DNA of 64,000 nucleotides from a virus. The DNA is taken from the IMG/VR virus record IMGVR_UViG_3300027722_000005, positions 23,741-87,740 of that record. One strand, written 5' to 3'. The position numbers were made by a program, and so were the translations under genes. Each line of letters opens with the position of its first letter. Within the stretch, counting starts at the first letter, position 1. Below are positions 3,845 through 40,956 of this stretch, piece by piece. The notes under the pieces were generated by a model. That model was given only the letters and a program-made list of their open reading frames with translations. It did not search any database and had not been told where the DNA came from.

Positions 3845-4018
3845 GCTCCCCTCTCAAATGCCAGCGGCCCGCCGGCTATCTCAGCCGACGGGCCGCCATT
3901 CGCGCTTGCACATCGGCAACCTTTGCGGTACAATGTGCTTACGGCTAGACGCCGGCCTGTCGGCGTTGTGGTCGAGGCCGGCGGGGAGTGCTCCAACACG
4001 CCCCGCCGGCTGTCCAAC

Positions 4019-4213
4019 TCAGTCCCCCATTTCCGCTTCTCCTTGTCCGGTTGCCTCCTCTCCCTCTGGCGGGATGGCTTCGATCTCACCAAGCACCCAA
4101 CGCCGCAAGAGCCGCCTGATTGCCTGTGAAAGTGTGATGTCTTCTCTCGCTGCCTTTTCTACTGAGGCACGATCCAGGTCGTTGGGTATCCTGAACGTTC
4201 TCGTTTTCTCCAT
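4019..4213 (-). CDS. Ribbon-helix-helix (CopG/Arc-like) regulator
   Basis: TRTFRIP beta strand followed by AAREDITLSQAIRRLL. Confidence 0.7.
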   Translation of the reverse strand: MEKTRTFRIPNDLDRASVEKAAREDITLSQAIRRLLRRWVLGEIEAIPPEGEEATGQGEAEMGD

Positions 4214-4517: not shown

Positions 4518-5327
4518 CTAGACCTCCTTATGTGCGGCAAACATAGCCGCCGGGCGTGACCACGTTCTTGCCAGCGCCTTCCACGGCTGCGGATAGTTGA
4601 TCCAATAATCGGCGGGTTGGTAGAGTTGCGCGAATGGCAAGCCGCCCAACTGCCACACAGCTTCTAGCCGTTCCCTTGCCGCCTCAATATCCTCGTCACC
4701 GTAGGCGATCAGCACGTACACCCGGCACTTTCGCCGGGGCAGGGCCAGCCGCTCGATGGCTCGCTCCAGTGGCTTGAGCGCCCCGGCGGTATCGGCGGCC
4801 AGAAAGACCTCAGAGATCCGCAAGCCTCGCAGCCAGTCAATGCGCCAATCGTCCAGGCGGCGTGCCTCAAGCCCGCCTGAAAAAATGGCATAGCGTTGCG
4901 AGTTGAGCATGCCCCCGACTCGCTCCAGGTGCGCCGGGCTGGCTTGTAGAATGTTGTTGTCCTGGATGATATAGCCCGGCGCAAAGTTGCGGATCTCACG
5001 CAACCGCCCCTCGCGCACATGCACCAGACACCACGGGCAGTTGTTGTTGCAGCCGTGCGTCGTGAACGTCACGCCCGCCTTGATGTACTGCCCCGGTGTA
5101 AAGCCGTTCGGGCAGGCGTCGAAGGCCGGGCCGCCCAGCTTGACGACAGGATAATAGAGCGCCCACGCCTCCGCCAGTCGTTGCCCCTCTGCCTGGTCCC
5201 AGGTGAACGCCACCGAAACGTGGACCTCAGCGGCGGTCGGTCGCCACAGCGGCGGATCGCCTACGAATGCCAGCGGGTCATCTGGCGTCAGGGCCGTTCG
5301 GCGCGGGAACACCCGAAGGATGGTCAT
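4518..5327 (-). CDS. Radical SAM-like protein
   Basis: TTHGCNNNCPWC (CxxxCxxC), N-terminal LGGPA, later DNNI motif. Confidence 0.75.
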   Translation of the reverse strand: MTILRVFPRRTALTPDDPLAFVGDPPLWRPTAAEVHVSVAFTWDQAEGQRLAEAWALYYPVVKLGGPAFDACPNGFTPGQYIKAGVTFTTHGCNNNCPWCLVHVREGRLREIRNFAPGYIIQDNNILQASPAHLERVGGMLNSQRYAIFSGGLEARRLDDWRIDWLRGLRISEVFLAADTAGALKPLERAIERLALPRRKCRVYVLIAYGDEDIEAARERLEAVWQLGGLPFAQLYQPADYWINYPQPWKALARTWSRPAAMFAAHKEV

Positions 5328-5632
5328 GCAGCCTCCTTCCTATTCCTCTTCTTCGTCTCGATCACGCCAACCGGCCGCCCGTTGACCTTCCGCCCTTCCA
5401 GCAGGGCAGCGCAACCCGGAACGCGCCCGGCGATTCGCTCCCTGGCCCGTTCCAGGCGACAGGCTACGGCCTGGTGGCTTACGCCCAACGCGGCGGCGAT
5501 CTCCATGTTTGTCATCCCCTGCCAGCGCAGCGCCATGACCGAGAGCTGCGACGGCTCAACCGCTCGCAAGATGTCGGCGACGGTATCCAGGTGACACAAA
5601 TAGTCCAGCGGTGTCACGGTGTAGCCCTCCAC
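5324..5632 (-). CDS. Sigma70 region 4-like HTH protein
   Basis: LRWQGMTNMEIAAALGVSHQAVACRLERAR. Confidence 0.75.
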   Translation of the reverse strand: MEGYTVTPLDYLCHLDTVADILRAVEPSQLSVMALRWQGMTNMEIAAALGVSHQAVACRLERARERIAGRVPGCAALLEGRKVNGRPVGVIETKKRNRKEAA

Positions 5633-6084: not shown

Positions 6085-6299
6085 ATTCCCCGCCTTCTGC
6101 GCTCGACGCTCAAGTCAATACCGGCCTCCCGTGTGAGCTGCTGCGCTGCCGCGTGCAATGCCGGGTCAACCGGCGCGAACGGTGCATCCAGCGGCCCGCC
6201 GGGCGTGGTTAGCGCCAGTTCGACAACCGCCGCCTGTGGTGCGCCGCGCAGGCGCTTGACGTGTTCGGCTACTCGCTGTGAATACGGCTGTACGCTCAC
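6081..6299 (-). CDS. Hypothetical protein
   Basis: GTGA stop/start overlaps. Confidence 0.45.
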   Translation of the reverse strand: MSVQPYSQRVAEHVKRLRGAPQAAVVELALTTPGGPLDAPFAPVDPALHAAAQQLTREAGIDLSVERRRRGM

Positions 6300-27012: not shown

Positions 27013-27085
27013 GCTCTCGTAGAGGAGCGGAGTCCTCACCGCGCTGTCAACGCGGAGATCGTGGGTTCAAATCCCACCGGGGGCG
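27013..27085 (+). tRNA. tRNA-Asp (GUC), CCA not encoded
   Basis: Acceptor GCTCTCG/CGGGGGC, D stem GAGG/CCTC, anticodon GTC at 27046-27048, T loop TTCAAAT. Confidence 0.93.
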
Positions 27086-39010: not shown

Positions 39011-39039
39011 ATTATATCATACAGTTGGCGGCCCGTCAA
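39011..39039 (-). promoter_or_regulatory. Strong sigma70 promoter
   Basis: TTGACG-17-TATAAT with TG extension. Confidence 0.85.
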
Positions 39040-39871: not shown

Positions 39872-39975
39872 CGTTCGTTTCTCCTTTCAGTCTCACGGGT
39901 TCCCCCTTGCCCGCGTTCTCAGTGGCCAAGGGGCAGCCCGCGAGGGCTGCGTGAGGTGCGTGCGCACCGTTGCGC

Positions 39976-40398
39976 TTAGTCCCAGCCGGCCGCTTGGTAG
40001 GCCGGGGAGTCGTCAACGATCTGCATGGCGAGCAGTTTGGAAGCCTCGTCCATCAGCTTGTAAAGGTCGGTCTTCGGCACGTTCCCTTCGCTGCACTGAT
40101 ACAGCCAGCAGCGCAGGGACTTGTAGGCCGACACGGGCAGCGGGGCCGGCGTGGGGCAGTAGGTGAAGTTCAGCGGTCGGAACTGTTCGGCAGAGTCGGG
40201 GTAACGGGCGTTAACCGCCTCGACATTCAGGGCAAACATGGCGGATGCCAGCCGTTCGCGGTCCTCGCGCTTGTCCAGGTCATAGCCCGCTTCTGTGATA
40301 CCGCGTGCGGGCCAGTAGAAACGGTCGCCCAGCAGCTTTGTGTAGAAAAAATCCACGATCCGATTGATGGTCTTGTCTTCGACTACATAGGCGCTCAT
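39976..40398 (-). CDS. Hypothetical mobile-element protein
   Basis: MSAYVV...LNVEAVNARY...CWLYQCSEG. Confidence 0.75.
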   Translation of the reverse strand: MSAYVVEDKTINRIVDFFYTKLLGDRFYWPARGITEAGYDLDKREDRERLASAMFALNVEAVNARYPDSAEQFRPLNFTYCPTPAPLPVSAYKSLRCWLYQCSEGNVPKTDLYKLMDEASKLLAMQIVDDSPAYQAAGWD

Positions 40399-40446
40399 CG
40401 TACAATCCTTTCTGCCCGGTACAAAGCCCCGGGCTGGGCGTTTCGT

Positions 40447-40505
40447 CTCTCATTCAGGCCGGCCCGATTTGCCGGCGACTAGGCGACGGTGCGCCTAGTT
40501 TCGAG
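40447..40505 (-). ncRNA. Type II hammerhead ribozyme, core variant CUGAAUGA
   Basis: CUC-GAAA-CUAGGCG/CGCCUAG-UC-GCCGGC/GCCGGC-CUGAAUGA-GAG; GUC triplet. Confidence 0.75.
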
Positions 40506-40508
40506 TGC

Positions 40509-40733
40509 TTAGTAGTCGTATCCGCAATCGGTGCCGAAACGGTCCATGGACTGCTCGGCGCGCAAGTCGTTTGCTCCCTGTCGGCCGCACGTCTCGCAAA
40601 CGGCGGCTTTGGTCTTGGGATAGTAGAAGATACGGTCGCCCTTGCGGATTTGCTTGCCACAAGTGCAAGTGCTGGCAAACCGGGCGGCCAGCCAATACGG
40701 ATCAGCGTTCCCATAGCGGCGGTTGCGATACAT
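40509..40733 (-). CDS. Small zinc-finger protein
   Basis: CTCGKQIRKGD...CETC; GAAAGGAG RBS. Confidence 0.7.
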   Translation of the reverse strand: MYRNRRYGNADPYWLAARFASTCTCGKQIRKGDRIFYYPKTKAAVCETCGRQGANDLRAEQSMDRFGTDCGYDY

Positions 40734-40749
40734 GGTCAAGGCTCCTTTC

Positions 40750-40956
40750 CTAGTACGCCACAACGGCGAGTCGCACGTCAGCGAACGGGCCAACGTGGAA
40801 GAACGCGCCGGCGTGGGTTTCGTTATAGTGCCGATAGTGGTACAGCTTCCCGCCCAGTGGCCAGCGGCCGCTCTTGGTGAGAGAGTACCGTTCCCTGAAC
40901 ACAGTAAATCGCACGGTTACATACCTGCCGCGGATGCGGAAATTCCAATTTTTCAT
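40750..40956 (-). CDS. Small basic hypothetical protein
   Basis: GAAAGGA RBS. Confidence 0.55.
   Translation of the reverse strand: MKNWNFRIRGRYVTVRFTVFRERYSLTKSGRWPLGGKLYHYRHYNETHAGAFFHVGPFADVRLAVVAY

What the first reader, a model, noticed from the sequence alone, without database searches (positions are those of the whole stretch)
40447..40505. Type II hammerhead with a one-nucleotide insertion in the catalytic core
Seen: CUC-GAAA-[CUAGGCG/CGCCUAG]-UC-[GCCGGC/GCCGGC]-CUGAAUGA-GAG. It has a GUC triplet, perfect stems I and III and the G10.1-C11.1 pair, but CUGAAUGA replaces CUGANGA. Loop I (AAAUCGG) could pair with the downstream CGA. A second GAAAC immediately downstream allows an alternative fold. 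Inference: a natural core variant that strict motif searches would miss, predicted to cut between 40477 and 40476.
Basis: partly seen in the sequence, partly recalled or inferred. Interest (0 to 1): 0.75.

Follow-up and report, generated by a model that had tools for sequence, protein, structure and literature searches.

The report
Phage type II hammerhead, extra core A
A real type II hammerhead (self-cutting RNA) motif sits between two small genes of an uncultivated phage; its one extra core base is a rare variant already reported in 2011, so the find is genuine but fairly ordinary.

Summary
It has an 8-bp stem III, a 6-bp stem I, a 3-bp open stem II, GAA and GUC. The second core strand is CUGAAUGA instead of CUGANGA.

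It is the only such motif in the 87.7-kb phage genome; 0 of 502 shuffled genomes gave this form. Rfam misses it. A covariance model built from 21 other phage type II hammerheads finds it alone in the window (32.8 bits, E 2.6e-7). It starts 3 nt after a stop codon, like canonical hammerheads in related loci; one of these sits before a homologue of the same downstream gene.

The extra A is not new. Perreault et al. 2011 report a natural insertion after A6 ("A6a") with low activity. Earlier reports of this scan found the same variant on other DNA.

In IMG/VR contigs, 16 of 120 CUGAAUGA pattern hits are intact type II hammerheads. Two control insertions gave 0 of 236. The variant therefore looks tolerated rather than random decay.

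This copy lacks the usual loop I/tail pseudoknot (3 bp, chance level), and no close relative was found. Whether it cuts is open: about 0.55 that it does, probably slowly, and about 0.3 that it is an inactive relic.

The parts
40447..40505 (-). Whole type II hammerhead motif (59 nt)
   Evidence: Descriptor hit, unique in the genome. Model R2: 32.8 bits, E 2.6e-7, exactly these ends.
40503..40505 (-). Stem II, 3' strand CUC (11.3-11.1)
   Evidence: Pairs with GAG at 40449-40447. A 3-bp stem II is the commonest length in canonical phage type II hammerheads, 54 of 106.
40500..40502 (-). Core G12 A13 A14
   Evidence: Read directly; aligned to GAA of model R2.
40478..40499 (-). Stem III hairpin: 8 bp (ACUAGGCG/CGCCUAGU, including A15.1-U16.1), loop CACCGU
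   Evidence: minimum-free-energy fold of the 59-mer forms it.
40477..40477 (-). C17; predicted cleavage 3' of this base, between 40477 and 40476
   Evidence: Position in the GUC triplet by hammerhead numbering. Cleavage itself was not tested.
40458..40476 (-). Stem I hairpin: 6 bp GCCGGC/GCCGGC, loop AAAUCGG
40450..40457 (-). Core strand CUGAAUGA; the extra A is one of 40454/40453 (A6a)
   Evidence: Model R1, built from canonical hammerheads, treats one A as an insertion.
40447..40449 (-). Stem II, 5' strand GAG (10.1-10.3)
40440..40446 (-). 3' tail ACGAAAC: the place of the usual pseudoknot partner; holds the second GAAAC
   Evidence: Best pairing with loop I is 3 bp (UCG/CGA), at chance level.
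40414..40434 (-). Third hairpin GCCCGG-9 nt-CCGGGC, between the hammerhead and the ribosome-binding site
   Evidence: Fold of the intergenic stretch. L073 has a comparable small hairpin between its hammerhead and its ribosome-binding site, seen by eye.
40406..40411 (-). Likely ribosome-binding site AAAGGA of the downstream gene
   Evidence: By eye, 7 nt before the ATG at 40398.
40509..40793 (-). Upstream small gene (94 aa from TTG, or 74 aa from the ATG at 40733); stop TAA at 40511-40509, 3 nt before the hammerhead
   Evidence: ORF list; weak PHROG matches at E 4e-4 and 7e-4.
39976..40398 (-). Downstream gene, 140 aa, unknown function
   Evidence: ORF list. 158 homologues at E<=0.001. No Pfam family.

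Best explanation
This is a genuine type II hammerhead ribozyme of the kind common in phage intergenic regions. It carries the rare A6a variant: one extra A in the CUGANGA strand. It lies in a run of same-strand genes, 3 nt after the stop codon of a small gene and 48 nt before the start of a 140-aa gene.

Inferred mechanism. When the polycistronic RNA is made, the three-way junction folds and the 2'-OH of C17 (40477) attacks the adjacent phosphate. This cuts the message between the two cistrons. The upstream piece would end in the stem III hairpin with a 2',3'-cyclic phosphate. The downstream piece would begin with a 5'-OH and the stem I hairpin. The two halves could then have different stabilities.

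Shown here: the motif, its statistical support, its membership of a recurrent phage hammerhead group, and its typical placement. Inferred: that it cleaves at all. If it does, it is probably slow, because of the insertion and the missing pseudoknot.
For: The motif is unique in the genome and absent from shuffles: 0 of 502 for this form.

Model R2 was built from 21 other phage type II hammerheads, 14 with CUGAAUGA and 7 canonical; the window was not included. It hits only 40447-40505 in the window (32.8 bits, E 2.6e-7; next best 10.3 bits) and only this place in the whole genome.

Placement matches canonical relatives. The L073 hammerhead starts at the stop codon of its upstream ORF and ends 33 nt before a homologue of the same 140-aa gene. 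The two L129 hammerheads start 1 and 3 nt after stop codons. A stop codon lies within 9 nt upstream in 101 of 125 canonical and 13 of 16 variant elements.

The 3-bp stem II is the modal length, 54 of 106.

The variant is specifically tolerated in nature. 16 of 120 CUGAAUGA pattern hits are intact type II hammerheads. The control insertions CUGAUUGA and CUGGAUGA gave 0 of 119 and 0 of 117 (Fisher p 1.4e-8).

The variant is conserved where it can be checked. L197 and L213 are 80% identical over 2 kb of flank but differ at 1 of 58 hammerhead bases, a C-to-U change that keeps a G-U pair. L216 shares only the hammerhead with them, with compensatory changes in stems and pseudoknot.

Perreault et al. 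2011 report low activity for a natural A6a variant and file it among core variants, several of which were assayed (section 8).

No promoter-like or terminator-like site on the minus strand lies between 39,100 and 42,600.
Against: Rfam's Hammerhead_II model does not report it, neither at gathering score nor at E<=10.

The published A6a example had low activity, and the insertion is expected to disturb the A6-N7 phosphate contact with U4.

This copy has no convincing loop I/tail pseudoknot: 3 bp, against a shuffled-tail mean of 2.94. In contrast, 12 of 16 other CUGAAUGA hammerheads have 5 bp or more, which suggests the variant usually relies on that contact.

No close relative of this phage region was found. 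Whether the extra A is conserved at this locus, or is a recent A-run slip, is therefore unknown.

The variant is rare: roughly 2% of this hammerhead form by a rough estimate, and 0 of 125 in an unselected census.
Confidence: 0.55

Rival explanations
1. It is a decayed hammerhead. A once-canonical type II ribozyme suffered a one-base slip in the A of CUGAUGA and no longer cleaves at a useful rate. The stems are still intact because the lesion is recent, or because the hairpins serve another role.
For: Published low activity of A6a, with a structural rationale. No pseudoknot above chance in this copy, against 12 of 16 in other CUGAAUGA hammerheads. No orthologue shows conservation of the insertion at this locus. 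The neighbour-family hammerheads in L073 and L129 are canonical.
Against: All other core positions and all 17 stem pairs are perfect. The same insertion recurs and is conserved elsewhere, while two equally accessible control insertions are absent: 16 of 120 against 0 of 236. L073 and L129 also lack a pseudoknot, so its absence is not in itself a sign of decay in this group.
Confidence: 0.3
2. It is a structured intergenic element with a non-catalytic role: two stable hairpins acting as mRNA stabilisers, a processing site or a protein-binding site. The hammerhead-like flanks would then be vestigial or irrelevant.
For: Two perfect G+C-rich hairpins dominate the fold. The isolated 59-mer folds at -24.9 kcal/mol, z -2.8. 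A third hairpin follows.
Against: The core letters and their exact spacing around the hairpins are what the model R2 and the descriptor reward. The larger 121-nt stretch is not unusually stable, z -0.95. No U-tract terminator is present.
Confidence: 0.1
3. It is a chance resemblance: two unrelated adjacent hairpins whose flanks happen to spell a near-hammerhead core.
For: Allowing any of 18 one-defect cores, 23 of 502 shuffled genomes gave at least one minimal-stem hit. Real genomes hold more hairpins than shuffles do.
Against: 0 of 502 shuffles for this form. R2 gives E 2.6e-7. Placement directly after a stop codon is typical.
Confidence: 0.05

Closest known systems
Type II hammerhead ribozymes of bacteria and phages (Rfam RF02276; Perreault et al. 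2011, PMC3088659)
   Same: Permutation (stems I and III capped, stem II open and short), GAA, A15.1-U16.1, GUC, G10.1-C11.1, and a phage intergenic position inside a same-strand gene run.
   Different: The core strand has 8 nt instead of 7. It scores below Rfam's threshold. It lacks the loop I/3'-tail pseudoknot that most type II examples have.
Natural 'A6a' insertion variant described by Perreault et al. 2011 (section 8, Figure 5)
   Same: One nucleotide inserted after A6 in an otherwise consensus core. Section 8 files it among natural core variants and reports low activity for it.
   Different: I could not see which organism or sequence that example is, nor its rate; the figures and supplements were not available. 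The window's copy is a different sequence in an uncultivated phage.
CUGAAUGA type II hammerheads in 16 IMG/VR phage contigs found here (for example L204 3954-4019, L240 4590-4653, L197 4132-4189)
   Same: Same 8-nt core strand, same permutation, 2-4 bp stem II, and a stop codon just upstream in 13 of 16. One of them (L240) passes Rfam's gathering score, 38.6 against 37 bits.
   Different: 12 of 16 have a loop I/tail pseudoknot of 5 bp or more; the window's copy has 3 bp.
Other tolerated core insertions: saltern HHmeta/HHphage (2a, 2b near C3) and U13a (Perreault 2011), and the extra A between A9 and G10.1 of the CChMVd hammerhead (recalled, paper not read)
   Same: They show that natural hammerheads can carry core insertions and still function, sometimes only under special conditions (passages).
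   Different: The insertions are at different core positions. HHmeta was almost inactive under standard conditions until the insertion was removed.

Membership tests
Hammerhead ribozyme, type II (RF02276) | Three-way junction with stems I and III closed by loops and stem II open | tested here: met
   Descriptor. The minimum-free-energy fold of the 59-mer gives both hairpins and an outer 3-bp helix. That helix pairs CUC with the GAG two bases 5' of the one used by the hammerhead model, 40451-40449. R2 alignment is end to end.
Hammerhead ribozyme, type II (RF02276) | Core G12 A13 A14, A15.1-U16.1, cleavage triplet NUH | tested here: met
   GAA at 40502-40500, A 40499 paired with U 40478, GUC with C17 at 40477.
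Hammerhead ribozyme, type II (RF02276) | Seven-nucleotide core strand C3 U4 G5 A6 N7 G8 A9 | tested here: not met
   The strand is CUGAAUGA, 8 nt. R1 aligns one A as an insertion.
Hammerhead ribozyme, type II (RF02276) | G10.1-C11.1 pair opening stem II | tested here: met
   G 40449 with C 40503.
Hammerhead ribozyme, type II (RF02276) | Score at or above Rfam's gathering threshold (37 bits) | tested here: not met
   No hammerhead hit at gathering score, none at E<=10 on 251 nt, and not among RF02276 matches at E<=10 in the genome. Canonical hammerheads in L073 and L129 also fall short, at 29.6-33.5 bits.
Hammerhead ribozyme, type II (RF02276) | Pseudoknot of 4 bp or more between loop I and the 3' tail (majority feature, not obligatory; Perreault 2011) | tested here: not met
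   Best is 3 bp, against a shuffled-tail mean of 2.94.
Hammerhead ribozyme, type II (RF02276) | Site-specific self-cleavage giving 2',3'-cyclic phosphate and 5'-OH | not testable with these tools
   No RNA run was listed for this DNA.
A6a (CUGAAUGA) subgroup of phage type II hammerheads | Match to a model built from independent members of the subgroup and their canonical neighbours | tested here: met
   R2 gives 32.8 bits, E 2.6e-7, the only hit above 10.3 bits in 64 kb. The core of the model and the window share the motif used to collect the members, so the core part of the score is not independent.

The most novel reading that the evidence does not exclude
The extra A after A6 may define a selected, functional subclass of phage hammerheads rather than damage. 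It would be a deliberately slowed or conditional ribozyme that usually leans on a strong loop I/tail pseudoknot. That would let a phage keep both uncut and cut forms of a polycistronic message. The window's copy has no pseudoknot, so it would be the slowest or most condition-dependent kind. Alternatively it may use an unrecognised contact: loop I AAUC can pair with GAUU in the ribosome-binding region about 40 nt downstream (by eye), which would couple cleavage to translation initiation of the 140-aa gene.
Probability: 0.2. Interest if true: 0.55.

Novelty: new member of a known kind. Interest (0 to 1): 0.3.

Why it matters
For this genome it marks a probable RNA processing site between two early-type small genes of an uncultivated phage.

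More generally, it adds one more natural example of a core-insertion hammerhead that family databases miss. The control scans here show that the CUGAAUGA form is specifically retained in phages (16 of 120 against 0 of 236 for two other insertions). It is also usually paired with a strong pseudoknot.

That makes one question testable: is the weak in vitro activity reported in 2011 a tuned property rather than a defect? The variant itself is already in print, and this scan has found it before on other DNA, so the surprise to a specialist is small.

Tried and rejected
Rfam at gathering score on the whole window gave only a tRNA. Rfam at E<=10 on 40350-40600 gave only a chance-level M23 hit at E 3.8.

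blastn 'distant' of 39900-40900 against the phage records gave no match.

An exact 24-nt stretch of the motif gave no match in viral contigs.

The closest protein relatives of the 140-aa gene in viral contigs (L001, L002) have no hammerhead upstream, by eye and by Rfam.

Model R1, from 3 near-identical canonical hammerheads, was too specific. It missed the window under default filters and gave only 9.8 bits with filters off. The alignment A4 made with it was mixed with junk and was not used.

MAFFT of the window with the three canonical elements misaligned it (A2) and was not used. Three rows (L194, L203, L214c) were dropped from A5 because MAFFT shifted their GUC. One further row (L184) stayed misaligned in A6.

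The pair counts on A6 show 97.1% of cells paired. They are circular, because the rows were chosen by a descriptor that demands pairing. I do not count them as independent covariation.

An alternative hammerhead using the second GAAAC was rejected: no type I, II or III descriptor hit other than the reported fold.

Literature: 'CUGAAUGA' together with 'hammerhead' gave 0 papers in the searched library. 'CUGAAUGA' alone gave unrelated hits. The deep-sea virome paper PMC13481778 says nothing on insertions (passages only).

No sequencing run was listed for this DNA, and no RNA holder was listed.

Complex prediction, structure prediction and fold searches were not relevant and were not used.

The supplementary figures of PMC3088659 (S6, S7, Dataset S1) may name the A6a example and give its rate.

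Full report
**What is there.**
The window is bases 23,741-87,740 of an 87,740-bp IMG/VR virus record with direct terminal repeats. On the minus strand, 40505-40447 reads CUC GAA ACUAGGCG-CACCGU-CGCCUAGU C GCCGGC-AAAUCGG-GCCGGC CUGAAUGA GAG. In hammerhead numbering the parts are:
- stem II 3' strand: CUC;
- G12-A14: GAA;
- an 8-bp stem III that includes A15.1-U16.1;
- C17 at 40477;
- a 6-bp stem I;
- the second core strand, with one base too many;
- stem II 5' strand: GAG.

The motif fills most of a 110-nt gap between two minus-strand genes. The upstream gene (40509-40793) stops at TAA 40511-40509, 3 nt before the motif. The downstream 140-aa gene starts at ATG 40398, preceded by a third hairpin (40434-40414) and AAAGGA. 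Between 39,100 and 42,600 the minus strand has no promoter-like or terminator-like site. The two genes are therefore probably co-transcribed; this is an inference.

**Is it more than chance?**
A type II descriptor (stems I>=4, III>=4, II>=3) finds this site and no other on both strands of the genome. In 502 dinucleotide shuffles of the genome:
- the CUGANNGA form occurred 0 times;
- the canonical form occurred once;
- any of 18 one-defect forms occurred 24 times, in 23 shuffles.

Rfam does not see the motif: nothing at gathering score, nothing at E<=10 on 251 nt, and not among RF02276 matches at E<=10 in the genome. That is a weak negative. Plainly canonical type II hammerheads in related loci also fall below Rfam's 37-bit threshold, at 29.6-33.5 bits.

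**Relatives of the locus.**
The 140-aa protein has 158 homologues at E<=0.001 and no Pfam family. The closest, at 68% identity, sits on a 1-kb contig.

Using an alignment of 39 homologues (A1) I collected 80 metagenome and 69 viral loci. Descriptors for all three permutations on the 153 loci then held gave three canonical type II hammerheads: L073 359-414, and L129 446-497 and 666-717. The window's own region (L004) was the only CUGANNGA hit.

- In L073 the hammerhead begins at the stop codon of the upstream ORF and ends 33 nt before the homologue of the 140-aa gene. This is the same layout as in the window, although the upstream genes are unrelated.
- In L129 both hammerheads begin 1 and 3 nt after stop codons.
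- A broader model (R2) later added only L010 1771-1855, with a CCGAUGA core, among the 152 loci.

Hammerheads are thus sporadic near this gene family. No orthologue of the window's copy exists in what I could reach.

**The insertion is already in print.**
Perreault et al. 2011 (PMC3088659; section 8 read whole; passages) report the following:
- The low activity of a natural insertion after A6 ('A6a') fits loss of the contact between the A6-N7 phosphate and U4.
- Stem II often has only two base pairs.
- Most type II hammerheads have a pseudoknot of four or more pairs between loop I and the tail just after stem II.
- Weak core variants may still work in vivo.

I could not see the figures or supplements that name the A6a example. 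A look-up of this scan's earlier notes, made after I had reached this reading, shows the same variant reported on other DNA.

**Is CUGAAUGA tolerated or just damage?**
I scanned IMG/VR contigs for CGAAAC-N8-30-GUC-N10-30-CUGAAUGAG.

| Core strand scanned | Loci returned | Loci with a full type II hammerhead |
|---|---|---|
| CUGAAUGA (extra A) | 120 | 16 |
| CUGAUUGA (control, U7 doubled) | 119 | 0 |
| CUGGAUGA (control, G5 doubled) | 117 | 0 |
| CUGAUGA (canonical) | 119 | 78 |

- The 16 have stem I of 4-9 bp, stem III of 6-13 bp and stem II of 2-4 bp.
- Fisher's test of 16/120 against 0/236 gives p 1.4e-8.
- If the shorter canonical pattern has four times more chance matches, the variant is roughly 2% of this hammerhead form.
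- An unselected census in the canonical loci gave 125 seven-base cores and no eight-base core.

One variant (L240 4589-4661) passes Rfam's threshold at 38.6 bits. It was the only one of the seven variants in the loci given to that call to do so.

There is also direct evidence of conservation. L197 and L213 are 80% identical over 2,008 nt around the hammerhead but differ at 1 of its 58 bases. L216 shares only the hammerhead with them, with compensatory changes. L204 carries one variant and three canonical hammerheads within 1.5 kb, all with the same UGACC/GGUCA pseudoknot.

**Does the window's copy belong?**
Model R2 was built from 21 of these elements, 14 variant and 7 canonical, without the window (A6). 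It finds 40447-40505 with 32.8 bits and E 2.6e-7. The next hit in 64 kb scores 10.3 bits, and this is the only hit in the whole genome. The core part of that score is not independent of the pattern used to collect the members. The 3-bp stem II is the commonest length, 54 of 106.

**What speaks against activity.**
The best loop I/tail pairing is 3 bp (UCG/CGA), equal to shuffled tails. In contrast, 12 of 16 other variants and 40 of 125 canonical elements have 5 bp or more (12/16 against 40/125, p 0.0016). The variant therefore seems to go with a strong pseudoknot, which this copy lacks.

The canonical L073 and L129 elements also lack one, so its absence is not decisive. The published A6a example was only weakly active.

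**Verdict.**
The element is a hammerhead-derived type II motif; I put that at about 0.9. It is a new member of a known kind. I put about 0.55 on biologically meaningful, probably slow, self-cleavage that separates the two cistrons, and about 0.3 on an inactive relic. The remainder goes to a non-catalytic structured element or to chance. Only a cleavage assay of the wild type against the single-A deletion, or RNA end mapping, can settle it.

Noticed in passing
L204 3954-5472: Four type II hammerheads lie within 1.5 kb of one phage contig: one with CUGAAUGA (3954-4019) and three canonical (4618-4682, 5062-5126, 5408-5472). All share the same loop I/tail pseudoknot UGACC/GGUCA but have different stem sequences. 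This is a natural internal control for the cost of the extra A.
   Followed up: partly
L156-L275 variant set against L511+ canonical set: CUGAAUGA hammerheads more often have a loop I/tail pseudoknot of 5 bp or more than canonical ones: 12 of 16 against 40 of 125, Fisher p 0.0016.
   Followed up: partly
L010 1771-1855; L182 5411-5479: Type II hammerheads with C at core position 4. L010 has CCGAUGA (32.7 bits with R2). L182 has CCGACGA (47.2 bits with Rfam RF02276, above threshold).
   Followed up: no
L275 4934-4993: A Twister-P5 ribozyme (Rfam 48 bits, threshold 37.6) lies about 650 nt downstream of a CUGAAUGA hammerhead on the same phage contig.
   Followed up: no
L203 7929-7992: A type II hammerhead whose core strand reads CUGACGAA before G10.1, that is, an extra A after A9. 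It lies on a contig that also has a CUGAAUGA hammerhead at 6213-6274.
   Followed up: no
L073 845-1798: In L073 the homologue of the 140-aa gene is followed, with a short overlap, by a 317-aa ORF holding a CxxxCxxC motif typical of radical SAM enzymes. This was seen by eye only; no family search was run.
   Followed up: no
window 27013-27085 (+): A tRNA gene (Rfam 58.2 bits) in the phage genome.
   Followed up: no
window 39011-39039 (-): A strong sigma-70-like promoter match (TTGACG, 17 nt, TATAAT; 11 of 12, with TG) on the gene strand, about 1.4 kb downstream of the hammerhead.
   Followed up: no
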